IMG/VR virus record: IMGVR_UViG_3300037797_000117
Span: 64,001 to 128,000 of that record
Length of the DNA stretch: 64,000 bases
From: a virus
Direction: 5' to 3' (one strand)
Part shown: in pieces, positions 9,560-47,721 of the stretch
Layout of the letters: the number at the start of each line of letters is the position of its first letter
Numbering within the stretch: the stretch's first letter is position 1
Notes under the pieces: generated by a model
Told to the model about the DNA's origin: nothing
Database searches by the model: none
The model's input: only the letters and a program-made list of their open reading frames with translations
Translations under genes and position numbers: made by a program

Positions 9560-9607
9560 CCCGGCGGGTTCCGTTGTGCAGTTGGTGAACACCCCGACAT
9601 CACCATA

Positions 9608-9637
9608 TTGTGCCGTACCCCGGTTTCGATGTACTGT
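9608..9637 (+). promoter_or_regulatory. operator-promoter copy 7
   Basis: TTGTGC-N18-TACTGT; spacer CGTACCCCGGTTTCG. Confidence 0.7.
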
Positions 9638-9695
9638 CTGTCTATCGGCAGCGCGCCACACGGCAGCAGCGCCACAGACTTTCCGGGAGATCCCG

Positions 9696-10385
9696 ATGAC
9701 CACCAGCACCGCTACCCAGCAGGACAGCACCGCCGGAAACTTCACCTACTACATCGCCAGGACCATCGTTCTCGGCTTCGCCATCGGCTGTCTCTACTTC
9801 TCCTTCGACCACACCATCCACCTGGCCCACATGCTCGGCGCCACCGGCACCCAGGCCTACACCGCCCCCGCCTTCGTCGACGGCTTCATGTTGCTTGGCC
9901 GCCTCGGCATGAGCGCCAAGTTCGACGCCGCCACCAACAAGATCGGCCGCCGGATGATGGTCGTCGGCGCCCTGATCTCCCTCGCCGCGAACATCGCCGC
10001 CGGCCAGACCCTCGGCGGCCGCATTCTCGGCGCGGCCGTGGTGATCGGCTTCCTCGTGACCGAGTGGTACGCCGGCAAGCTCAAGCCCGCTCCCGCCCCG
10101 GCCCCGACCGTCACCCCCGACGAGCAGGCCGCGATCGACCTGGCCGCCAAGCGTTCCGCCGCCGCCCGCAAGGCCGCCGAAACCCGCAAGGCGAACCAGG
10201 CCGCCAAGCCCACCCGCAAGCCCCGCACCCGCAAGCCCGCCGCCGCCAAGACCCACCCGGTCGCCGCGATCCAGGCCCTGACCCCCCAGCAGATCAACGA
10301 CGCCCCGGTCTCCCCCGCCCCGTGGATGGGCCCGAGCCTGGTCATCGCGAAGACCACCGCTGACATCCGGAACCTGACCAACTAA
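9696..10385 (+). CDS. DUF2637/SpdA-like plasmid spread membrane protein
   Basis: SFDH..HLA...P.FVDG...ISLAANIA 4-TM pattern and a Lys/Ala-rich tail. Confidence 0.7.
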   Translation: MTTSTATQQDSTAGNFTYYIARTIVLGFAIGCLYFSFDHTIHLAHMLGATGTQAYTAPAFVDGFMLLGRLGMSAKFDAATNKIGRRMMVVGALISLAANIAAGQTLGGRILGAAVVIGFLVTEWYAGKLKPAPAPAPTVTPDEQAAIDLAAKRSAAARKAAETRKANQAAKPTRKPRTRKPAAAKTHPVAAIQALTPQQINDAPVSPAPWMGPSLVIAKTTADIRNLTN

Positions 10386-10670: not shown

Positions 10671-10994
10671 ATGACCACCACGACCGCCACGACCTACGGT
10701 GCCGAGTTCGGATTCACCGCCCAGACCGACGGGATCAGGGCGTTCGTGAACGACGCCGGCTACACCGCCGACGAGGCCGGCGCCGTGTTCGATGCCTTGC
10801 TGGCCGCGTTCCGTTCCGTGGTCGACGGACGGCTCCCGGACGGGGTGTTGTGGCAGCCGATCACGAGCGAGTTCATCCACCCGGTCGACGTCGACCTGCC
10901 CGACCGGGACGAGATGACCGAGCTGTTCCGGGAGGCGTGGGCCGCGACCGCAGATCGGATCGAGGCGATCGAGTCGGAGGTTCTTGGCGCCTGA
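10671..10994 (+). CDS. hypothetical acidic protein
   Basis: AAGGAG RBS; 107 aa. Confidence 0.7.
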   Translation: MTTTTATTYGAEFGFTAQTDGIRAFVNDAGYTADEAGAVFDALLAAFRSVVDGRLPDGVLWQPITSEFIHPVDVDLPDRDEMTELFREAWAATADRIEAIESEVLGA

Positions 10995-10996
10995 AC

Positions 10997-11040
10997 ACAC
11001 AGCGACGCCCCCCCGGGATCCCGGGGGGCCGTCGCTGTGT
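10997..11040. terminator. bidirectional terminator-like inverted repeat
   Basis: ACACAGCGACG CCCCCCGGGATCCCGGGGGG C CGTCGCTGTGT between convergent genes. Confidence 0.65.
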
Positions 11041-11051
11041 GTAACGAGGAT

Positions 11052-11180
11052 CGTCCGTACGTACGGACGGACGTACGGTTCCACCAAAAACAAGGGAGGG
11101 GGGTCTTACGCGAGCCCAGGGCCCCCTCTGAGGGGGGCGTACGTCCGTACGTACGTACGTCCGTACGGACAACCGTACGA
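11052..11180. repeat. two clusters of tetranucleotide CGTA/CGTC/CGGA repeats
   Basis: CGTCCGTACGTACGGACGGACGTACG and CGTACGTCCGTACGTACGTACGTCCGTACGGAC flanking a G/C-run hairpin. Confidence 0.8.
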
Positions 11181-11237
11181 TACTCACGGTGACATGTCGG
11201 TGGGCGGGGGCATGCCGTCCGACAACCGTGGGAAGCG

Positions 11238-11549
11238 CTATTCCTGAACTTCGTTGCCGCCGTCCGCATGCCCGTCGACCGGGTCTGTCTGGTCCGCGCG
11301 GCTGCGTTCCTGCCCGGCCAACTGGGCCTCCAGCTCGCGGCGTTTCGCCAGAGCAGCAGAGCGGGGGATCCGCGCCCACCGCTTGTCACCCAGCCGGACG
11401 TGCAGCAGTTCTGGCGGGTCGCTGCCGATCATCGCGATGACCTGCCGGCGGGTGGTGCCGTAGCCGATGACCGCCGCCGCCTCCCCTGTAGTCAGCATTT
11501 CGCCTTCCCACGCGGGATGGTCCTGGTCGGGTACCGGCGTATCCGTCAT
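11238..11549 (-). CDS. HTH_17/Xis-like (MerR-type) DNA-binding protein, candidate tra regulator
   Basis: MLTTGEAAAVIG...RRQVIAMI...WARIPRSAA; divergent from the spd-like gene. Confidence 0.7.
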   Translation of the reverse strand: MTDTPVPDQDHPAWEGEMLTTGEAAAVIGYGTTRRQVIAMIGSDPPELLHVRLGDKRWARIPRSAALAKRRELEAQLAGQERSRADQTDPVDGHADGGNEVQE

Positions 11550-11646
11550 AAGCACGTTTGCCCCCTTCGTTCCTGGTGTGGCCGGTCGCCGGTTCGCGTC
11601 CGGCCGACCGCACACACGTCCACGATCAACTGTCCCCCACCGGTAT

Positions 11647-11708
11647 GACAAAGGTACCGAAGTTACCCGACATACCGAGTGACCAAAGCTGCCAAAGTTT
11701 CCGACAGT
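11647..11708. promoter_or_regulatory. tandem imperfect 9-bp repeats, candidate operator
   Basis: GACAAAGGT ACCGAAGTT ACCCGACAT ACCGAGTG ACCAAAGCT GCCAAAGTT TCCGACAGT in a divergent intergenic region. Confidence 0.5.
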
Positions 11709-11724
11709 ATGTCATGATGAGCGC

Positions 11725-13368
11725 ATGGAGCGGAACACCGAACACGGAGCGCCGAAGAGTGCCGAATCGGCCCCCGGCGGTACCGCAGTACCCGCGGTAC
11801 CGGTGACCCCCGGTACCGCGGTACCGGTACCGCCCGCGGCCCGGCCGGTACCGGCACACCGCGCCCCGGTACCGACGACCGACACCGGCGGTACCAGTAC
11901 CGACAGCGGTACCGGTACCGCCGGCCGGTACCGCTGGTACCACCGGCTCGGCCGCCGGTACCGCCACACCGGTACCGGTACTGCCACCGCCGGTACCAGC
12001 CTCGCGGTACCGGCCGACGGGGCAGTACAGGTCTTCGGTACCGGTACCGGCGACCTGGTACCGGCCGCCGGGTACCGGTACAACCCGGTCGGTACCGAAG
12101 CAACGATCCGGGCCCACCTGCGCGACCTGCCGGTGCCGGCGGCCGGTACCGCCCGTCGGCACCGCAAGGCGGCGACCGGCACCACCACCGAGCCGGTGAC
12201 CTTCCTCGGCCGGATCTTCAAAGCGATCAGCACCATCTTCGAGATCGCCCCCCTGGCCGCGCCCCTGTTCGCCTCCGGCTGGTTCACCTACCTCGTCGTC
12301 ACCGACGAGTACGGCCTGAGCCAGCCGTGGCCGATCGCGGTGACCATGGTGCTCGGCCTCGAAGGTGTCGTCTGGACCCTCGCCAAGCTGTACGAGCAGC
12401 GGCTGGTCGCCGGCCACTCCACCATCGCCGACCGGCTCGGAATCCTGTTCGTCGTCAGCGCCATCGGCAGCCTCATCTACTGGCACTCCATGGTCGAGGC
12501 CAAGGCCCGCACCGCCGAGGCCAGGGCCGCCGCCGTGCTGGCCGGCATCGACCCGGACTTCGTCGTCGCCGCCAAGGCCGACTGGCGCGGTGCCGCCGTC
12601 GCCGCGTCCATGAGCGCGCTCGGCGTGTTCGTGTACGGGCGTAGGGCCAGGTGGAACCGCCGTGTCGAGCTGGAAGCCGAAGGCCGCGTCGACATGCAGG
12701 CCCTGCGGATCGGTCTCTGGCAGTGGATCGTCTCCCCCTGGGAGTCGACCTGGTCGTTCCGCCACGGCATGAAGTACCGGATCAAGCGCCCCACGGACGC
12801 GGTACGGGACTGGCGGCTGTGGAAGGAGATGGGCAAGCCCAAGCTGTGGCCGCCGGCCATGACCGCCGGTACCACCGGCACCAGCACCGACGAGACGGTA
12901 CCGGTACCGGCGTGGATGCTCGCCGAGCTACTCGGCAACGCCGCCGGTACCGGTACCGGCGGGGACCTGGTCGGTACCGGGTACCCGGTACCGACCTCGC
13001 CCGGCCCGGCCGGTACCGGTACCGGCGGTACGAGCTACGTACCGGTACCGCCGGCGAGCGTTGGCGGTACCGCGACCCGTACCGCCTCCGGCCCGGCCGG
13101 TACCGGAGCGCGCGGTCCCGGCGGTACCGGTACCGGTACCGCCGGGGACTCGGTGACGATCAGCCAGTACCGGCAGCGCAACGCCCACCGTCTCGACAAG
13201 ATCCGTAAGGTGCTCGACGGTACCGACGGCCGGCCGGATTGGCGGCTCGCCCCGGAAGCCGACCTGACCCTGTCCGTCATCACGGCCGCCGGCGGGTTCA
13301 GCAACCGCACCGACGCCGCCCAGTGCAAGTCGGTCCTCCTGGCCGACCGGCAGCGGGAAGGCGGATAA
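11725..13368 (+). CDS. SpdB2/DUF2637-like membrane protein with GGTACC-repeat-coded N- and C-terminal regions
   Basis: 4-TM core followed by RIGLWQWIVSPWESTWSFR; repeat-derived GT/VP/RY tracts. Confidence 0.7.
   Translation: MERNTEHGAPKSAESAPGGTAVPAVPVTPGTAVPVPPAARPVPAHRAPVPTTDTGGTSTDSGTGTAGRYRWYHRLGRRYRHTGTGTATAGTSLAVPADGAVQVFGTGTGDLVPAAGYRYNPVGTEATIRAHLRDLPVPAAGTARRHRKAATGTTTEPVTFLGRIFKAISTIFEIAPLAAPLFASGWFTYLVVTDEYGLSQPWPIAVTMVLGLEGVVWTLAKLYEQRLVAGHSTIADRLGILFVVSAIGSLIYWHSMVEAKARTAEARAAAVLAGIDPDFVVAAKADWRGAAVAASMSALGVFVYGRRARWNRRVELEAEGRVDMQALRIGLWQWIVSPWESTWSFRHGMKYRIKRPTDAVRDWRLWKEMGKPKLWPPAMTAGTTGTSTDETVPVPAWMLAELLGNAAGTGTGGDLVGTGYPVPTSPGPAGTGTGGTSYVPVPPASVGGTATRTASGPAGTGARGPGGTGTGTAGDSVTISQYRQRNAHRLDKIRKVLDGTDGRPDWRLAPEADLTLSVITAAGGFSNRTDAAQCKSVLLADRQREGG
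11779..12150. repeat. GGTACC cluster 1 (about 22 copies), candidate clt
   Basis: Counted by eye; copies fall in all three reading frames. Confidence 0.85.
12868..13224. repeat. GGTACC cluster 2 (about 17 copies), candidate clt
   Basis: Counted by eye; includes tandem GGTACCGGTACCGGTACC at 13123-13140. Confidence 0.85.
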
Positions 13369-13506
13369 AGATCGGCTAGCTGAACGGTTCCACGCCCATA
13401 GACGTGACCCTGAGCATGATCGATGCTTTACCTGGCACCACACGTACCAACTAGCACCAACCTCCCCAAACAGCCCAGATCCCGACAAGAGGAAGACGCG
13501 ACCCCC

Positions 13507-14094
13507 ATGAAAATGCTGACGGCGCAGACCCGGGCCGAATGGCACCGAGGCAACCCCCTCCCCGAACACCCGGTCCGGTCCAAGCCGGCGAGGCCGACGT
13601 TCAGGTTCCTCGACACCCGGGCGTGGCGGCTCCACACCCGCGGCGTGTGGCTCCTCGTCGCCGCGTGCCTGCCCGCCCTGTTCCTGGTGGCGTTCTGGGT
13701 GACCGCCGACGAACTCGGCATGATCGGCTGGGGCATGACCACCGCGGCGGTCCTGATGGTCGCCGTGGCCACCCTGTCCCTGTGGGCCGCCCGCGCCGTC
13801 GAGAACGCCACCCGCAACCGGGCCGACCTGAACGCCGCCGCCGAGGACGCGTTCCTGGCCTTCGACGGTGTCGGACCGGACCTTCCCCCGCCGGCCGCGG
13901 CGGCCGCCGCACCCGTCCCGACCGGTCCGCTGCCGACGCCCGCACCGTGGGTCGGCCCGAACATCGTCTGGCCGACCCGGCAGGAAGACATCCACGAGTC
14001 CGGCCGCGAATACGACGACTACGCGGAGCAGGTCACGGCGGAGGTCGCCGACCCGGCGCCCGCCGCCGGCCCGGCCCGACCCACCCGCCTGTAA
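13507..14094 (+). CDS. membrane protein (2 TM), transfer operon
   Basis: GAGGAAG RBS; two hydrophobic helices. Confidence 0.6.
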   Translation: MKMLTAQTRAEWHRGNPLPEHPVRSKPARPTFRFLDTRAWRLHTRGVWLLVAACLPALFLVAFWVTADELGMIGWGMTTAAVLMVAVATLSLWAARAVENATRNRADLNAAAEDAFLAFDGVGPDLPPPAAAAAAPVPTGPLPTPAPWVGPNIVWPTRQEDIHESGREYDDYAEQVTAEVADPAPAAGPARPTRL

Positions 14095-14106
14095 CCCGAC
14101 CAAGAG

Positions 14107-15597
14107 GTGAATATCGTGAGCACCCCTCAGAACGTTCCGACCCAGCCGGCCGGGCACGGGCCCTACCCGGTGTACCCGGTCGTTCCGGGTGCACCCGTGC
14201 CCGGCACCCCGGGCACGCCCGGAGCCCGGCCCCGCGGGGATGCGGCGTCCCGGATCCAGCGGATGCCGCTCGGGCCGCTGGTGGCCTCGGCTGGCCTGAT
14301 CAGCCTGATCGTCGTCCTGGTCCTGTTCGAGCTGTTCCCGCCGATGATCGCCCTGATGATTCTGTGTGTCCTGATCCTGCTGGCCATCGGGATCTGGTAC
14401 CTGCGTCAGCGCCGCGCCGCCCGCCGCCGCCCCGGCCCCGCCGGTGCGCGCGGCGGGGCTGCCGGGCCGGGTACCCGCCGCGGCGGGAACCCGATCAGCC
14501 GCATGCTCGGCGGCCGCGGTGCCCGCCCCGGTGGTGCCGGCGGCCGCCCGGGCGGTGGCGGGCTGCGCGGGATGTTGCCCCGCGCGCTCGGCGGAACCCG
14601 GGGACGCCCCGGCGGCGGCACCCCCGGCGGTGCGCGGGCTGCGGGTGGCCGCCCCGGCGGCAAACTCAACCCGCTCAACTGGGGTCGCAACCGGGCAGCC
14701 GGTCGCGGCCCTACCACCGGTCCGGGCGGCAGCAAGGCCCCCGGCCGGTTCAACCCGTTCAGCCGGAGCCGCGGCGCGGCCGGCCCGGGTGGTGGACGGC
14801 CCGGGGGCGGCGCTCCCGGCGGTGGGGGACTCGGCAGGTTCAACCCGTTGAACCGGTTCCGTAGCCGGGGAGCTGGCGGCCAGCCGGCGGGGGCCAAGCC
14901 CGGCGGTGGATCATCCAACTCGCCAGGAAGATCCCCCGGTGGTAGCGGCGGCGGCCTGTTCGGGGGCAAACTGAATCCATCCAACTGGAAACGGAACAAC
15001 ACGACCGGGCGCGGCCCGGCCGGCGGGGCCTCCCCCACCGGCGGAGGCCCGGCCGGCGGCGGCGGGGGGCCGGCTCGGGGGTCCGCTGGCGGGGGACCGC
15101 CACCAGGCCCCACCCTGCGCCGCGGTGGTGGCGGCCCCCCAACGCCGCCCCCCGCCCCCCGGCCGGGCGGTTGGTCCCGACCGGGGGGTGGCGCTACCCG
15201 GCGGGCACCGGATCCGCCCGCAAGCGGCGGCGGTGGTTCAGGAAGCGGAGATGGAGGCAGTTCGGACATGGGCATTGAACTTTCCGACGACAAGGTCAGC
15301 CTCATCAAGTGGGCACTCGGGTTGAAGGCCGCCGCCGCCGCGGGCGAGGCCGAGGCCAAAAAGTGGCGTGCTCTTGCCATGCAGGCGGAACAGGAGCAGC
15401 CGACCGAAACGGCGTTGATCGAGCGGCTCCGCGCGCAGGCCACCCGCTACACGGCGGCGTTCGAGCGGATGAGCAAGTGGTACGAAACCATCAAAAAGCA
15501 GAACGAGCCCGACTTCAGGGCCTACTTCACGCCGCGGCACGGGTCGCTGCATCGGGAGGCCCGGTCGGATACCCGGCGGGCGTTCGACGGCAACTAG
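14107..15597 (+). CDS. Gly/Pro-rich membrane protein with internal G(K/R)xNPxN repeats, transfer operon
   Basis: 2 TM, long Gly-rich region, helical C-terminal domain; upstream of traB. Confidence 0.65.
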   Translation: MNIVSTPQNVPTQPAGHGPYPVYPVVPGAPVPGTPGTPGARPRGDAASRIQRMPLGPLVASAGLISLIVVLVLFELFPPMIALMILCVLILLAIGIWYLRQRRAARRRPGPAGARGGAAGPGTRRGGNPISRMLGGRGARPGGAGGRPGGGGLRGMLPRALGGTRGRPGGGTPGGARAAGGRPGGKLNPLNWGRNRAAGRGPTTGPGGSKAPGRFNPFSRSRGAAGPGGGRPGGGAPGGGGLGRFNPLNRFRSRGAGGQPAGAKPGGGSSNSPGRSPGGSGGGLFGGKLNPSNWKRNNTTGRGPAGGASPTGGGPAGGGGGPARGSAGGGPPPGPTLRRGGGGPPTPPPAPRPGGWSRPGGGATRRAPDPPASGGGGSGSGDGGSSDMGIELSDDKVSLIKWALGLKAAAAAGEAEAKKWRALAMQAEQEQPTETALIERLRAQATRYTAAFERMSKWYETIKKQNEPDFRAYFTPRHGSLHREARSDTRRAFDGN

Positions 15598-15616
15598 AGC
15601 AGAAAGGTGGCCCACC

Positions 15617-15946
15617 GTGGGAACACACAGCTACGACGACCAGACCAGCACCTACAAGTGGATCAACGGCCTGAAGGGGCGGGCGGGTGGCGCTAACGTG
15701 CTCGCCCGGGGCGTCCAGATCCTCGCCCACCAGGCGCAGGACCGCCAGCCGGTAACGCCGGCGTTCGCCGCCGAAGTTGCTGCCGTATCGGCCCTCCTGG
15801 GCAAGGCATCACTCGAAGCGGGCGAACTTTTCAAGGCTGCCCGGGCAGCTCACCGCCGTGACGTTGAACGGGTGGAGAACTACCGCAAGAGCCCGGCGGT
15901 AGAGACCAACGCCGACGTCACCGCAGCCAGGCGCGACGGCATGTAG
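15617..15946 (+). CDS. hypothetical protein (TraA-like position)
   Basis: AAAGGTG RBS; immediately before traB. Confidence 0.65.
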   Translation: MGTHSYDDQTSTYKWINGLKGRAGGANVLARGVQILAHQAQDRQPVTPAFAAEVAAVSALLGKASLEAGELFKAARAAHRRDVERVENYRKSPAVETNADVTAARRDGM

Positions 15947-16016
15947 CTGTCGGTGGCCGGGCCCACCCCCGGCCACCGACCCCCGCACCACCGAGACGTT
16001 GAGGGAGGCGAGACGG

Positions 16017-18233
16017 ATGCCGATGCAGTACAACGCCACCATGTCCGGCGGCACGGCATGGGGGGCGGTCAACGGGTTCCTTACCGCCTTCGCCGTGGCC
16101 CTGCTCGGGTCCAACTGGAATCGCCTCGACCGCAACTGGGGGTGGTGGCACGACCGGTTCGGCCCGTTCCCGATCTGGTTCCCGATGGCTGTCGCCGCCG
16201 CCGCCGCGGTCGCGGCGGTCCTGGTCGGCAACCACCGCGGCACCACCGCTTCCAACATCCGCTTCCGCGCCGGGTGCTGGCTCGGCGCGGGCGTGTGGAC
16301 CACAGTCACCATCCACTACGGCTGGTCCGTGATCGGGTTCGTCATCCTTACCGTCGCCGCGGTTCTTGCGGGAACCCTCGCCCCCGCGTTCGGAACCTTC
16401 ACTCCGCCTCCGCAGCCGTCCATGGACAGCGGAAGCGAGATCACCAGACTCACCCGTTTGATCAACAAGTTTGCCAACATCAAGCCCGAAGACCAGCCGA
16501 CCTTGCAGAAGGTCCGCGACTGGGAACCGAAGGACGCCGGCGTCACCTACAAGGCAGTCGGCGCTCCCGGCACCGACTTCAGTTGGCGCACGCTGCGGGA
16601 GATCCAGATCAGGTTGGCGGCCGGGCTCGGCCTGCCGGAAGGGTGCCCGGTCCAGTCAGAGCCGGCCGGCACCACCCAGAACGAAGCCCTTGTGATGGTT
16701 TCCACCCGGAACTACCTGGCCGAAGACGTCTGGTACCCGATGGACATGACGCCGCTAACCGTCACGGAAGACTTCCCCGTCGGCCGGTTCCTTGACTCGG
16801 CACCGACCGACGTCGAGTTGCGCCAGGCCGCCGGTGTCGTGGTAGGCCAGCGCGGCGGCGGTAAGACCATGCTGCTTCACAACATCACCGCCAGCTTGAT
16901 TCGCATGCCGGACGTCGTGGTGTGGCACATCGACCTCAACGGTGGTGGCCTGTCCGCGCCGTGGACCATGCCGGTAGCGATGGGCGAGGTGCAGTACCCC
17001 GGCGTCGACTGGGTCGCGTCAACGCCCGAAGAGGCGCTGATCATGGCTGAGGTGGCGCTGGCGATCGCGAAGGACCGCAAGCGACGCTACGCCGGCGAGC
17101 TGGTACGCAGCGACGACGACGTGCTCCCCGTCCGACCCGGCCTACCGAAGATCCTCATCATTGTCGACGAGAGTGCCGAGGTCACCGGCGAAGACGCCAA
17201 GAAGAAGGCCCAGGCGGTGTCGGCGGCGTTGCAGGAGGTGCAGCGGATCGGCCGCGCCATGTGCGTCGACGTCTTCTTCTCCGTCCTGCGTGGCACCGGC
17301 GATCTGCTGCCGGCCGGAATCAAGAAGCAGGCCGTCCTGTCGTTCTGCACCCGGGTGCGCGACGAGTCGGAACTGGCGTTCGTGTTCGACTGGAAGTCGG
17401 GCCTGGACCACGAGGCGCTCAAGGAGCCCGGCCAGATGTACATGCAGCGCGGCTCCGGCGCGGTCAAGATGTTCAAGGGGTTCCGATTGAAGCCCAGCAT
17501 GATGATCGCCATCGTGCATGCCATGCAGCATGTCCGGGCCCAGGCCCAACTCGACGGCCCCGCGTTGCGGGTCGCCGGTGACGCCTACCTCCAGCGGTGG
17601 CAGCGACCCGACGCAGTTGCCTACCTGGCGGGGCTCCGCGGCGAAGACGGCCCCGACCCCGGCGACGGTGGGGGCGGCGGCTACGGCGGCCCACCCGACC
17701 CGGACCCGGACCCGTATTCGTCCGGTGGCGACCCCGGGGACGACGCGCTCGCCGAGTTCGACGCCGCCATCCGCGAGATCGAGGCGGGGGAGAAGCCGGA
17801 ATCGACCCGGCCGGCGGCACCGGTGCGGGAGGCAGCACCGGCAGCACCGGCCGGGTCGATTCCCGACGACGTGGTCCAGCGGATGCTGAACCAGATCGAG
17901 GCGCTCCCCACGACGGAGGCGCCGCTGGTAGACCCGGCCCCGGCGGCGACGACGCTGGCCGGCCCGGGCCTGCCGGGCGGCCCGGATCAGGCGTCGACCC
18001 GTGGCCCCGTCCCCCGGCGGGCGTTCATCGAGCAGCTACTCGAGCGGGCCGGTCGGGACGGGATGCGGACGGGGGACATTGTGCGGCTTGTGATGGCGTC
18101 GGGGCTGAAGGTTCGGCGCGAGGCCACGATCAAGGAGGACCTACAGGCTCTCCTTGACGCGGGGGTCATCACGCGGAACAACCCGGACGGCGGCGAGACG
18201 CACGGCATGTACTGGCTGAGCCGGCTGGTCTGA
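16017..18233 (+). CDS. traB: TraB/FtsK-SpoIIIE-like conjugative DNA translocase
   Basis: N-terminal TMs, Walker A GQRGGGKT, Walker B ILIIVDESAE, C-terminal wHTH. Confidence 0.85.
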   Translation: MPMQYNATMSGGTAWGAVNGFLTAFAVALLGSNWNRLDRNWGWWHDRFGPFPIWFPMAVAAAAAVAAVLVGNHRGTTASNIRFRAGCWLGAGVWTTVTIHYGWSVIGFVILTVAAVLAGTLAPAFGTFTPPPQPSMDSGSEITRLTRLINKFANIKPEDQPTLQKVRDWEPKDAGVTYKAVGAPGTDFSWRTLREIQIRLAAGLGLPEGCPVQSEPAGTTQNEALVMVSTRNYLAEDVWYPMDMTPLTVTEDFPVGRFLDSAPTDVELRQAAGVVVGQRGGGKTMLLHNITASLIRMPDVVVWHIDLNGGGLSAPWTMPVAMGEVQYPGVDWVASTPEEALIMAEVALAIAKDRKRRYAGELVRSDDDVLPVRPGLPKILIIVDESAEVTGEDAKKKAQAVSAALQEVQRIGRAMCVDVFFSVLRGTGDLLPAGIKKQAVLSFCTRVRDESELAFVFDWKSGLDHEALKEPGQMYMQRGSGAVKMFKGFRLKPSMMIAIVHAMQHVRAQAQLDGPALRVAGDAYLQRWQRPDAVAYLAGLRGEDGPDPGDGGGGGYGGPPDPDPDPYSSGGDPGDDALAEFDAAIREIEAGEKPESTRPAAPVREAAPAAPAGSIPDDVVQRMLNQIEALPTTEAPLVDPAPAATTLAGPGLPGGPDQASTRGPVPRRAFIEQLLERAGRDGMRTGDIVRLVMASGLKVRREATIKEDLQALLDAGVITRNNPDGGETHGMYWLSRLV

Positions 18234-23927: not shown

Positions 23928-23956
23928 TTGCCCCGTACCCAGGGTACGGATACTCT
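23928..23956 (+). promoter_or_regulatory. operator-promoter copy 10 (perfect palindrome)
   Basis: TTGCCC-N17-TACTCT; spacer CGTACCCAGGGTACG. Confidence 0.75.
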
Positions 23957-46316: not shown

Positions 46317-46344
46317 GTCATTAATAAGATGCCTTATGCCAACG
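46317..46344. other. dif/Xer-like recombination core
   Basis: GTCATTAATAA-GATGCC-TTATGCCAACG (11-6-11), overlapping the recombinase start. Confidence 0.6.
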
Positions 46345-47721
46345 GGTGAAATCGGGCAATCCGTCGAGCCAGTGCAGTGCCGTACGCCTCCCGCTCACCC
46401 TCCGACCGACACCCCGGACCCCGTCGTGATCGAGGCCGAAGTTGTCGCCGACACCGGGGCCGCGCCGGGCCGCAGAGAGTTGATCGTGCGCGGGCGGGCA
46501 GCCCTCGCCGATCTCGACCGCAACCCTGACGACTGGGTCGACGCCGACGTCGACGCCGAGCTGCGTGACGCCATGCCGCGTAACACCCGGCTGGCCTACG
46601 AGTACCAGTGGGGTCGCTGGATCTGGTGGTGCGGCACGAAGGGCCGCGAGCACTGCCCCGCCAGGCCGGGCAGTGTGCGGCAGTACATCAAGGAACACTG
46701 GGACATGACCGACGCGCAGGGCCGTAAGCGTGGCTGGCGGGGCCGGCCGTACGCGCCGGCCAGCGTCGAGCAGGCCGTGTACGTGGTGTCCGCGGTGCAC
46801 CAGTGGTTCGGGTACGCGTCGCCGACGAAACACCCGTCGGTGAAGTTGCAGCTCAAGGCGTACGACAAGCGGTGGAAGGCTGCCGGGTACCGGCAGCGGA
46901 AGGCGTACGCGCTGACGTTGGAGGAGAACGTCGCGGTCGCCCGCACGTGTAGCCGGGCCACGGTGGGAGGGGTGCGTAACGCGTGCGCGTTCCGGCTCCA
47001 GTGGGACATGGGCGCGCGGGTGTCCGAGCTGCTCGGGGAATCCAACGAGGCCGGGGTCTGGCGTGGGCTGCGGATCGGTGACCTGCGGTGGGAGTCCGAC
47101 GACCGGGCGGTCATCCACATTGCCCAGACGAAGACGCACGAGTCGCGTGACGTCGCCGTCGAGGCGACCCGGTGGCTGGTCGACGACAACGACCAGTTCA
47201 TCGACGAGGCCGGCCGGCTGATCCCGCTCGACAATGCCGGCGAGCCGACCCGGCCGCCGGTCCCCCACCCGTACGTCGACGTCGACCCGCTGATCCTGCT
47301 GCGCAGCTGGTACGACCTGCTGGTCACCCGTGGCCAGGCCCACCCGGACGCGCCGCTGTTCCGCGAGGTCGCCTCGACGGGTCGGATGCGGAAGGACGGC
47401 ACCCCCGCTGGTGGCATCCTGCCGGGGCCGTGGGGGTACGAGGCGTTCTCGATCGAGTTCGACCGGTGCGTACGCCGGGCCAGGGTCCACGTCGACCCGG
47501 TCACCGGTGAGGAGCGGCACATCACGTCGCACTCGAACCGGTCGGGGCTGATCACCGAAGCGGTCGACGCGGGGGTGCCGGCGGAGATTCTGCGGCTGCG
47601 AACCGGGCATGCGGCCGGGTCGCGGGTGCTCCAGGGCTACTACCGGTCGGGTCGCAAGTGGGGGCGGCACAACCCGGGGACGGTCATCCGTAGGACCCGG
47701 CGCCGGGCGGTTCCTGCCTGA
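46336..47721 (+). CDS. tyrosine recombinase (Cre/XerD-like resolvase or integrase)
   Basis: GARVSELL (R), ITSHSNRSG (HxxR), TGH...QGYYR (H, Y). Confidence 0.9.
   Translation: MPTGEIGQSVEPVQCRTPPAHPPTDTPDPVVIEAEVVADTGAAPGRRELIVRGRAALADLDRNPDDWVDADVDAELRDAMPRNTRLAYEYQWGRWIWWCGTKGREHCPARPGSVRQYIKEHWDMTDAQGRKRGWRGRPYAPASVEQAVYVVSAVHQWFGYASPTKHPSVKLQLKAYDKRWKAAGYRQRKAYALTLEENVAVARTCSRATVGGVRNACAFRLQWDMGARVSELLGESNEAGVWRGLRIGDLRWESDDRAVIHIAQTKTHESRDVAVEATRWLVDDNDQFIDEAGRLIPLDNAGEPTRPPVPHPYVDVDPLILLRSWYDLLVTRGQAHPDAPLFREVASTGRMRKDGTPAGGILPGPWGYEAFSIEFDRCVRRARVHVDPVTGEERHITSHSNRSGLITEAVDAGVPAEILRLRTGHAAGSRVLQGYYRSGRKWGRHNPGTVIRRTRRRAVPA

What the first reader, a model, noticed from the sequence alone, without database searches (positions are those of the whole stretch)
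11779..13224. About 39 GGTACC palindromes overprinted on a membrane-protein gene near traB: candidate palindromic clt
Seen: about 22 copies in 11779-12150 and about 17 in 12868-13224, with none in the TM-coding core between. They are read as GT, VP and xYx in different frames, which points to selection on DNA rather than protein. Established: Streptomyces TraB binds clustered 8-bp direct repeats (clt) through its C-terminal wHTH. Inference: (C)GGTACC(G) is this TraB's recognition sequence. It would be unusual because it is palindromic, so it gives no directionality, and it lies inside a coding region.
Basis: partly seen in the sequence, partly recalled or inferred. Interest (0 to 1): 0.7.

Follow-up and report, generated by a model that had tools for sequence, protein, structure and literature searches.

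The report
DNA word array inside phage membrane gene
A gene for a membrane protein in the DNA-transfer module of a 166-kb actinomycete phage carries 39 copies of the 8-base word CGGTACCG written through its codons; this is probably a protein docking array, and related elements have the same layout with different words.

Summary
There are 39 GGTACC sites, mostly the 8-mer CGGTACCG. Twenty-two lie in 11779-12150 and 17 in 12868-13224, in all three frames of ORF 11725-13368, with none in the membrane core. Recoding the same protein with the phage's codon usage gives 5.1 +/- 1.8 sites. Elsewhere in the 166-kb genome the word occurs at chance level.

The replicon is a complete phage. The gene encodes a SpdB-like membrane protein, and the arrays cover its two disordered segments. 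It lies upstream of a TraB/FtsK-type translocase.

In 13 related loci the homologous gene has the same two arrays of 19-56 copies, with lineage-specific words such as CGGAACCG, CGGAAC, CGGGACG, GGGACCG, GAGACG and CCGACC. These occur in all frames and, where not palindromic, in both orientations.

The word follows the protein's own C-terminal helical, HTH-like domain. It does not follow TraB: two loci share the word but have unlike TraB recognition helices. It does not follow the neighbouring regulator either.

My best reading (0.45) is a self-encoded, membrane-anchored reader docking the phage DNA at the transfer machinery. TraB-read clt remains possible (0.25). A separate non-coding repeat cluster at 11046-11185 looks more like a classical clt.

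This scan has noted similar arrays before on other genomes. I found no published description in the paper library I searched.

The parts
11725..13368 (+). Gene for a 547-aa SpdB-like membrane protein (P0001). Layout: disordered N tail, helical membrane core, disordered linker, small C-terminal helical domain.
   Evidence: ORF and translation. GC3 is 0.86. AF2 model: residues 1-114 and 428-473 have pLDDT below 50; helices span 160-368; the C-domain 477-546 has pLDDT about 95. The family profile matches Streptomyces phage Hiyaa gp98 (hhalign 97.7%) and pIJ101 SpdB (76.7%, E 2e-5). Four of 55 members give weak DUF2637 hits.
11779..12150 (.). Array 1: 22 GGTACC (mostly CGGTACCG) over the N-terminal disordered tail (aa 19-141).
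   Evidence: Spacing is irregular, median 17 bp.
12202..12858 (+). Membrane core and conserved cytoplasmic segment (aa 160-378), free of the word.
12868..13224 (.). Array 2: 17 GGTACC, mostly over the linker before the C-terminal domain (sites at aa 382-471), with a last outlying site at 13219 (aa 499) inside that domain.
13153..13365 (+). C-terminal helical domain of about 70 aa with an HTH-like last two helices; the candidate reader of the word.
   Evidence: AF2: (4 helices, pLDDT 82-95). Its subtype tracks the word. Fold searches were inconclusive.
11238..11549 (-). Divergently transcribed small regulator, homologous to the HTH_17 genes at the same place in relatives.
   Evidence: Alignment A2. 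Pfam HTH_17 is on record for the L002, L010 and L020 neighbours. The window copy itself has no Pfam hit.
11046..11185 (.). Second, non-coding repeat element: two inverted patches of GTCCGTACG/CGTACG words (9 CGTACG) around a G/C-rich spacer. It is the better candidate for a classical clt or for the regulator's operator.
   Evidence: the only such cluster in the genome. The same position and architecture occur in relatives with different words.
13423..15946 (+). Three further genes of the module: 223-aa and 496-aa membrane or low-complexity proteins and a 109-aa helical protein.
   Evidence: GC3 0.80-0.88. No family hits.
15999..18233 (+). TraB/FtsK-SpoIIIE-type translocase (744 aa) with N-terminal membrane segments, Walker A GQRGGGKT and a C-terminal wHTH-like domain.
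   Evidence: phrog_31069 at 2.9e-72. About 30% identity to actinomycete plasmid and phage FtsK-like proteins. Sequence.

Best explanation
The two GGTACC clusters are arrays of protein recognition sites (word CGGTACCG). They are overprinted on the parts of a SpdB-like membrane protein gene that encode disordered linkers, where the protein tolerates almost any sequence.

The most likely reader is the small helical, HTH-like domain at the C-terminus of the same protein, which hangs on a flexible tether about 100 residues long. If the membrane protein is oligomeric, it would present several such domains and capture the phage DNA at its own gene with high avidity. That would hold the genome at the membrane next to the TraB translocase and the other module proteins.

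Functionally this would be a membrane-docking or centromere-like site, possibly serving TraB-driven movement of phage DNA between hyphal compartments or cells.

Shown here: selection on the DNA, family-wide conservation of the layout with changing words, and association of the word with the C-domain. Inferred: binding itself, oligomeric avidity, and the role in DNA transfer or spread.
For: (1) Selection acts on the DNA. There are 39 sites against 5.1 +/- 1.8 after synonymous recoding, in three frames, and the word is at chance level elsewhere in the genome.

(2) Site number is maintained despite turnover. The window and L001 have 39 and 40 sites, of which only 24 lie in shared alignment columns. 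The N tail outside the sites is 52% identical, against 79% for the core.

(3) The layout is a family property. Thirteen loci have two arrays each, of 19-56 copies and eight word variants, nearly absent from most flanks (in L008 and L009 the bare hexamer is also common outside the gene). They occur in all frames, and in both orientations where not palindromic, which argues for double-stranded DNA rather than RNA.

(4) Nearly every member ends in a small helical domain. Some give sub-threshold HTH hits (HTH_24/IclR/MarR E 0.005-0.02; HTH_28 and Sigma70_r4_2).

(5) The word tracks this domain.
- Five CGGTACCG loci share F-x-N-[KR]-[TA] with 47-80% identity in the HTH part.
- The CGGAACCG locus has normal core identity (57-65%) but only 28-41% in the HTH part.
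- P0015 and P0056 share the subtype F-x-K-Q...C and the word GGGACC(G).
- P0056 shares only this domain with the family (hhalign 94.4%, no match in the core).

(6) The other candidate readers do not track the word.
- TraB of the window and of L002 are 31% identical with unlike recognition helices, although the word is the same.
- The upstream regulators are 17-46% identical, or belong to other families (GntR, XRE), at loci with the same or related words.

(7) Published precedents. SpdA2 binds palindromes inside its own gene (PMC4170104). SpdB2 binds double-stranded DNA, oligomerises, interacts with TraB and has homologues on actinophages (PMC4447253).
Against: - No binding was measured or modelled.
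- The C-domain has no significant match to a solved DNA-binding fold (Foldseek E above 3; VIA Z at most 5.2, with winged-helix and HTH chains only among noise-level rows).
The covariation rests on about two independent contrasts.
- L013 carries a GGGAC-core word with a different C-domain subtype.
- TraB is the only experimentally established sequence-specific reader in such modules, and it is present wherever the contigs reach far enough.
- Published SpdB2 DNA binding is non-specific.
Confidence: 0.45

Rival explanations
1. The arrays are the element's clt. The C-terminal wHTH of TraB recognises CGGTACCG, many TraB hexamers load there, and the phage DNA is pumped across the membrane.
For: TraB proteins of Streptomyces plasmids bind clustered short repeats through helix 3 of their wHTH (as described in PMC4447253 and PMC3583192). 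The word is 8 bp long, like the published repeats. A TraB homologue lies downstream in the window, L002 and L013, and more weakly in L009. In several relatives the word is strongly oriented (30:1 in L009, 44:12 in L010), as expected for a directional loader.
Against: The window and L002 have the same word but unlike recognition helices, and their TraB proteins are only 31% identical. L002 and L013 have alike wHTH domains but different words. Other relatives mix both orientations almost equally (14:17, 22:21, 27:14). Known clt loci are 54-175 bp, non-coding and hold 3-9 repeats (PMC3583192). A non-coding repeat element of that kind exists separately at 11046-11185.
Confidence: 0.25
2. The arrays are bound by another trans-acting factor, such as the divergent small regulator or a host nucleoid or developmental protein. 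They would then act as a silencer, roadblock or sink controlling expression of a potentially toxic membrane protein operon.
For: A small regulator gene is always next to the gene. tra/spd operons of Streptomyces plasmids are kil-kor systems under tight repression (PMC4447253). HTH_17-type proteins such as Xis and BldC can bind repeats cooperatively (my own knowledge). In L008 the same word also forms palindromes immediately upstream of the gene's start codon, where its promoter would be expected.
Against: The regulator's family differs between loci (HTH_17, GntR, XRE). Within the five CGGTACCG loci it is only 17-46% identical, while the non-coding patches next to it change word from locus to locus. 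A host factor would not explain eight lineage-specific words.
Confidence: 0.13
3. The word is not a protein site. It would instead be a by-product of repeat slippage in a low-complexity coding region, or act through DNA or RNA structure formed by many self-complementary hexamers.
For: Eight adjacent pairs are 6 bp apart, that is in tandem. The word is self-complementary in this clade. The regions encode disordered low-complexity peptide.
Against: Most copies are dispersed at irregular spacing. They sit in three frames and are conserved as islands in otherwise fast-diverging sequence. Relatives use non-palindromic words in both orientations, which fits neither slippage nor an mRNA element.
Confidence: 0.07

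Closest known systems
[quoted passage not shown]
   Same: A cluster of short, element-specific DNA words in a TraB/FtsK-type transfer module. The word differs between related elements. It is presumably a docking site that brings the element's double-stranded DNA to a membrane machine.
   Different: Published clt loci are 54-175 bp, essentially non-coding, and hold 3-9 mostly direct repeats (PMC3583192). Here there are 19-56 copies in two arrays of about 350 bp, written through all three frames of a gene. They are palindromic or in mixed orientation, and the word does not follow the TraB wHTH.
sps palindromes inside spdA2 of pIJ101, bound by SpdA2
   Same: Recognition sites of a spread-module protein lie inside the coding region of the gene that encodes the binder and leave a repeated peptide footprint (SRDD/E there; GT, VP and Y-containing here) (PMC4170104).
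   Different: sps is a 12-bp palindrome present 2-3 times and highly conserved between plasmids, and SpdA2 is a small soluble protein. Here an 8-bp word occurs 39 times, varies between lineages and lies in a membrane protein gene. Self-binding is inferred, not shown.
SpdB2 (pSVH1) / SpdB (pIJ101) spread proteins, weakly DUF2637-like
   Same: Multi-helix integral membrane protein encoded with TraB. SpdB2 oligomerises, binds double-stranded DNA, interacts with TraB and has homologues on actinophages (PMC4447253). Profile similarity to pIJ101 SpdB and to phage Hiyaa gp98.
   Different: Homology to SpdB is marginal (hhalign 76.7%). Published SpdB2 DNA binding is non-specific, and no word arrays have been described in spdB2 genes.
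Binder-in-own-gene sites elsewhere: parS inside spo0J/parB, lambda ori iterons in the linker-coding part of gene O, P1 pac hexamers in pacA (my own knowledge, not checked here)
   Same: Arrays or single sites for a DNA-binding protein placed inside that protein's own gene, in lambda precisely in the linker-coding part. P1 pac has two clusters of a palindromic hexamer.
   Different: Different protein families and functions (partition, replication, packaging). None of them involves a membrane protein or dozens of copies in three frames.
KOPS / SRS words read by the gamma domain of FtsK / SpoIIIE
   Same: 8-bp words read by a winged-helix domain attached to a membrane-anchored DNA machine.
   Different: KOPS and SRS are dispersed genome-wide and strictly polar. 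Here the word is confined to one gene and is not polar.

Membership tests
clt / TraB recognition sequence array | Cluster of a short element-specific repeat within or beside the tra module | tested here: met
   39 copies, 2.6 kb upstream of traB in the same operon-like module.
clt / TraB recognition sequence array | Repeats mostly direct (same orientation), small non-coding locus of about 50-200 bp | tested here: not met
   The word is palindromic here and of mixed orientation in relatives. There are two arrays of about 350 bp, entirely coding. Compare PMC3583192.
clt / TraB recognition sequence array | Word specificity follows the recognition helix of the cognate TraB wHTH | tested here: inconclusive
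   The only informative pairs argue against it (window vs L002, L002 vs L013). Only three to four loci include TraB, and no binding data exist.
clt / TraB recognition sequence array | Required in cis for TraB-dependent transfer | not testable with these tools
   Needs a mobilisation assay.
SpdB/SpdB2-like spread membrane proteins | Integral membrane protein with several transmembrane helices, encoded with TraB | tested here: met
   AF2 gives long hydrophobic helices at 160-311. TraB is downstream in the window, L002 and L013.
SpdB/SpdB2-like spread membrane proteins | Sequence homology to characterised SpdB proteins | tested here: inconclusive
   hhalign to pIJ101 SpdB gives 76.7%, E 2e-5 over 110 columns. 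To Hiyaa gp98 it gives 97.7%. DUF2637 hits are below cut-off in 4 of 55 members. tblastn against the plasmid and phage collections finds nothing.
TraB / FtsK-SpoIIIE conjugative translocase (window 15999-18233) | FtsK-type ATPase with Walker A, N-terminal membrane anchor and C-terminal wHTH | tested here: met
   phrog_31069 at 2.9e-72. Walker A GQRGGGKT and a helix-turn-helix-wing pattern at the C-terminus. Pfam gives only a weak AAA_22 hit.
sps/SpdA2-type self-gene sites | Sites bound by the product of the gene that contains them | not testable with these tools
   Only covariation of word and C-domain is available.
HTH / winged-helix DNA-binding domain (C-terminal domain of P0001) | Recognisable HTH fold or family match | tested here: inconclusive
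   Four-helix model with pLDDT 82-95. No significant Foldseek match, and VIA Z at most 5.2. Sub-threshold HTH Pfam hits occur in other members.

The most novel reading that the evidence does not exclude
A family of membrane proteins in phage-borne and related TraB modules carries, inside each gene, a lineage-specific array of dozens of docking sites for its own tethered C-terminal domain. It would let large actinomycete phages move their genomes between hyphal compartments or cells without virions, and word divergence would insulate co-resident elements from each other.
Probability: 0.35. Interest if true: 0.85.

Novelty: new variant of a known kind. Interest (0 to 1): 0.74.

Why it matters
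How double-stranded DNA is recognised and handed to the TraB pore, and what Spd proteins do, is still poorly understood in Streptomyces conjugation. For the archetypal integrating element pSAM2 no clt motif has been described (PMC9513070).

A conserved cassette of membrane protein plus in-gene word array, with words that switch between lineages, offers three things:
- a directly testable recognition code;
- a candidate role for SpdB-like proteins as sequence-specific DNA anchors;
- evidence that complete phages carry and maintain such machinery, which bears on phage-plasmid hybrids and on virion-independent spread of phage DNA in mycelia.

It is also an extreme example of regulatory or structural DNA information overprinted on coding sequence by using disordered-linker codons.

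Tried and rejected
- More relatives in annotated or large collections: none found in PLSDB plasmids or INPHARED phages (tblastn), IMG/VR or GTDB genomes. The metagenome scan returned only the L001 contig. The broad alignments were too divergent for the pattern scan. Relatives cannot be drawn for a virus record.
- Fold of the whole protein and of the C-domain: no significant Foldseek match. The VIA wide search gave only noise-level rows.
- Helical phasing: spacing is irregular.
- KpnI-type restriction logic or genome-wide enrichment: outside the gene the word is at its Markov expectation.
- Classical TRS word GACCCGGA as this element's clt: it is dispersed, not clustered. No repeat cluster lies at the 3' end of traB.
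- Link to the promoter palindrome CGTWCCC-N-GGGTACG noted by other readers: the sites exist and share only the GTAC core. I found no evidence that they are read by the same protein.
- The neighbouring DUF2637-like ORF 9576-10385 is not alignable to the family and has no array.
- The simple promoter and terminator scan of 10900-13500 found nothing.
- The Vogelmann 2011 paper could not be read. Statements about helix 3 and 8-bp TRS therefore rest on how PMC4447253 and PMC3583192 describe it.

Full report
**Observation.**
- GGTACC occurs 80 times in the window, against 19.0 +/- 4.0 in shuffles.
- Thirty-nine copies lie in ORF 11725-13368 (+, 547 aa, P0001): 22 in 11779-12150 and 17 in 12868-13224. 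None lies in the 717 bp between them.
- Twenty-three copies are read as Gly-Thr, 11 as Val-Pro and 5 through a Tyr codon.
- The flanks extend the word to CGGTACCG, with 32 exact copies in the gene.
- The window is part of a single 166,387-bp contig. This is its only GGTACC cluster. Outside the gene, CGGTACCG occurs 21 times against a Markov expectation of 21.8.

**Selection acts on the DNA.**
- Encoding the same protein with the phage's codon usage gives 5.1 +/- 1.8 GGTACC (maximum 11 of 2000).
- Shuffling the gene's own synonymous codons gives 14.4 +/- 2.5.
- Gly is the rare GGT codon in 25 of 27 Gly-Thr pairs but in 4 of 41 other Gly codons.
- Against the 78%-identical relative L001, 24 sites lie in shared alignment columns and 15-16 are private to each gene, yet the totals are 39 and 40.
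- The N tail outside the sites is only 52% identical, against 79% for the core.
- So sites turn over while their number is kept.

**Context.**
- The replicon is an IMG/VR virus record with direct terminal repeats and a CheckV completeness of 100%.
- It encodes a head maturation protease, minor tail proteins and a tail spike. It is therefore a large actinomycete phage (69% G+C), not a plasmid.
- The gene lies in a transfer-like module:
  - a divergent small regulator (11238-11549, minus strand);
  - the membrane protein gene;
  - three further genes for membrane or low-complexity proteins;
  - a 744-aa TraB/FtsK-SpoIIIE translocase (15999-18233), with phrog_31069 at 2.9e-72, Walker A GQRGGGKT and a C-terminal wHTH-like domain.
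- AlphaFold2 predicts that residues 1-114 and 428-473 are disordered, which is where most array sites lie. It predicts a helical membrane core at 160-368 and a confident four-helix C-terminal domain at 477-546.
- The family profile matches the membrane protein gp98 that precedes the FtsK-like gene of Streptomyces phage Hiyaa (hhalign 97.7%).
- It matches SpdB of pIJ101 marginally (76.7%, E 2e-5). Four of 55 members touch DUF2637 below cut-off.

**Comparative result.**
- A word-index search and a full profile search found 5 close and about 50 distant family members, all from metagenomes or SRA assemblies.
- I fetched DNA for 13 loci. Every one has the same anatomy: two arrays, one over the N tail and one over the linker before the C-terminal domain. 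The copies are in all three frames and nearly absent from most flanking DNA (in L008 and L009 the bare hexamer is also frequent outside the gene).
- The word differs by lineage:

| Locus | Word | Copies |
|---|---|---|
| window, L001-L004 | CGGTACCG | 21-40 |
| L005 | CGGAACCG | 15 forward, 4 reverse |
| L010 | CGGAAC(G) | 44/12 |
| L012 | CG[G/A]GAACG | 27/14 |
| L013 | CGGGACG | 33/19 |
| L011 | GGGACCG(G) | 14/17 |
| L020 | GGGAC(C) | 22/21 |
| L008 | GGAGACG | 29/18 |
| L009 | (CGA)CCGACC | 30/1 |

- Mixed orientation within single arrays argues for recognition of double-stranded DNA. It argues against an mRNA element and against a strictly polar, KOPS-like signal.
- Spacing is irregular, with medians of 12-27 bp.

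**Who reads the word? There are three candidates.**

(a) TraB.
- TraB is present downstream in the window, L002 and L013, and more weakly in L009.
- The window and L002 share the word. Their TraB proteins are 31% identical, and the C-terminal recognition helices are unlike.
- L002 and L013 have clearly homologous wHTH domains but different words.

(b) The upstream regulator.
- It is HTH_17-like in some loci, GntR in others and XRE in one.
- Among the five CGGTACCG loci it is only 17-46% identical.

(c) The membrane protein's own C-terminal domain.
- Almost every family member ends in a small helical domain with an HTH-like last helix pair. Some give sub-threshold HTH hits.
- The five CGGTACCG proteins share F-x-N-[KR]-[TA] at the turn and are 47-80% identical in this part.
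- The CGGAACCG protein has ordinary core identity to them (57-65%) but only 28-41% here.
- From its repeated dipeptides I guessed a GGGAC-type word for P0015, the same core as in P0056, whose C-domain subtype (F-x-K-Q...C) it shares. Its DNA then showed GGGAC(C) 43 times.
- P0056 shares only this domain with the family (hhalign 94.4%), and its membrane part is not alignable. So arrays travel with the C-domain.

Caveats.
- The independent contrasts are few.
- Fold searches did not place the domain in a DNA-binding fold.

**A second cis element.**
- A non-coding stretch at 11046-11185 lies between the upstream gene's terminator hairpin and the 3' end of the regulator gene.
- It holds two inverted patches of GTCCGTACG/CGTACG words. 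It is the only CGTACG cluster in the genome.
- The same position and architecture recur in relatives with other words: TGTCCGAC in L001, GTGTCCG in L010, TTGATCAACC in L013, GTTGTCG in L003 and GTTATAAC in L004.
- In L008 and L009 the upstream patch uses the same word as the in-gene arrays.
- Among loci that share CGGTACCG arrays the patch word differs. The patch therefore follows a fast-evolving reader, either the regulator or TraB.
- Its form (non-coding, about 130 bp, 8-9-bp repeats) resembles published clt loci more than the in-gene arrays do. Its place, next to a small regulator gene, recalls the pIJ101 clt, which lies close to korB. Published clt loci are 54-175 bp with 3-9 repeats (PMC3583192).

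**Interpretation.**
- That the arrays are selected protein-docking sites on DNA is, in my judgement, very likely (about 0.85).
In that model the cassette is a membrane anchor for the phage DNA next to TraB.
- TraB-read clt remains a real alternative (0.25).
- Another trans factor (0.13) and non-binding explanations (0.07) are less likely.
- Published precedents are the sps sites inside spdA2, bound by SpdA2 (PMC4170104). SpdB2 itself binds double-stranded DNA, oligomerises, interacts with TraB and has homologues on actinophages, where it was proposed to assist spreading of phage DNA (PMC4447253).
- In the searched paper library I found no description of large in-gene word arrays in SpdB-like genes.

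**Relation to earlier scan notes.**
- After my reading was formed, a word search of the scan's notes showed that follow-up agents had reported the same kind of array on other genomes:
  - an 8-base word SCGAACAG in a phage transfer-module membrane gene;
  - GGTCCGG in a Thermobifida phage;
  - a 9-mer in a membrane-anchored DNA-binding protein gene next to an FtsK-type motor.
- Two of those reports concluded that the word follows the gene rather than the pump, or is that protein's own docking site.
- These are unchecked AI notes, not independent evidence. They do indicate that the phenomenon is recurrent in this scan.

**Limits.**
- All relatives are metagenomic fragments, and only three to four include TraB.
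- The host is unknown.
- No binding, localisation or transfer data exist.
- The TraB literature on helix 3 was read only through citing papers.

Noticed in passing
window 11046-11185: Non-coding element with two inverted patches of GTCCGTACG/CGTACG words (9 CGTACG, the only such cluster in the 166-kb genome) around a G/C-rich spacer, at the 3' end of the small regulator gene. The same place and architecture occur in relatives with different words (L001 TGTCCGAC, L010 GTGTCCG, L013 TTGATCAACC, L003 GTTGTCG, L004 GTTATAAC). It is the better candidate for a classical clt or for an operator array.
   Followed up: partly
L008:9843-10000 and L009:9140-9210: In two distant relatives the patch upstream of the membrane gene uses the same word as the in-gene arrays. 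In L008 this is GAGACG arranged as CGTCTCATGAGACG palindromes; in L009 it is CCGACCGACC. This suggests one reader for both elements there, possibly autoregulation.
   Followed up: no
window 2187-56996 (e.g. 23934-23948): About a dozen copies of the palindrome CGTWCCC-N-GGGTACG with two or fewer mismatches, as other readers noted for promoters. It shares the GTAC core with the array word and with the CGTACG cluster.
   Followed up: partly
window, 22 sites (e.g. 17697-17710): GACCCGGA, the pSVH1 TraB recognition word as I recall it, occurs 22 times against 8.5 expected. Seventeen copies are on the + strand. They are dispersed rather than clustered, and two overlapping copies lie in the PDPDPD-coding linker of traB.
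   Followed up: no
genome 11349-12512 (-), outside the window: Second, shorter FtsK/SpoIIIE-like ORF (387 aa, phrog_31069 at 8e-24) in the structural arm of the phage.
   Followed up: no
whole genome (G000): Strong avoidance of some 6-bp palindromes (CTGCAG 3, CTCGAG 7, GCTAGC 7, CAGCTG 11 in 166 kb at 69% G+C), which suggests restriction-site avoidance. The contig ends share a 28-bp direct overlap.
   Followed up: no
L006:4372-5643 (Streptomyces phage Hiyaa gp98): The distant homologue in a cultured phage has no large array. It does carry 4-5 copies of GACCCCGG(A) in its C-terminal linker-coding part (DPG codons), against 2-8 in 16 kb of flanks. This may be a small-scale version of the same arrangement.
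   Followed up: no
window 46336-47721: A 461-aa ORF with a weak integrase-family hit (phrog_1, 4e-8), which hints that the phage may be temperate.
   Followed up: no
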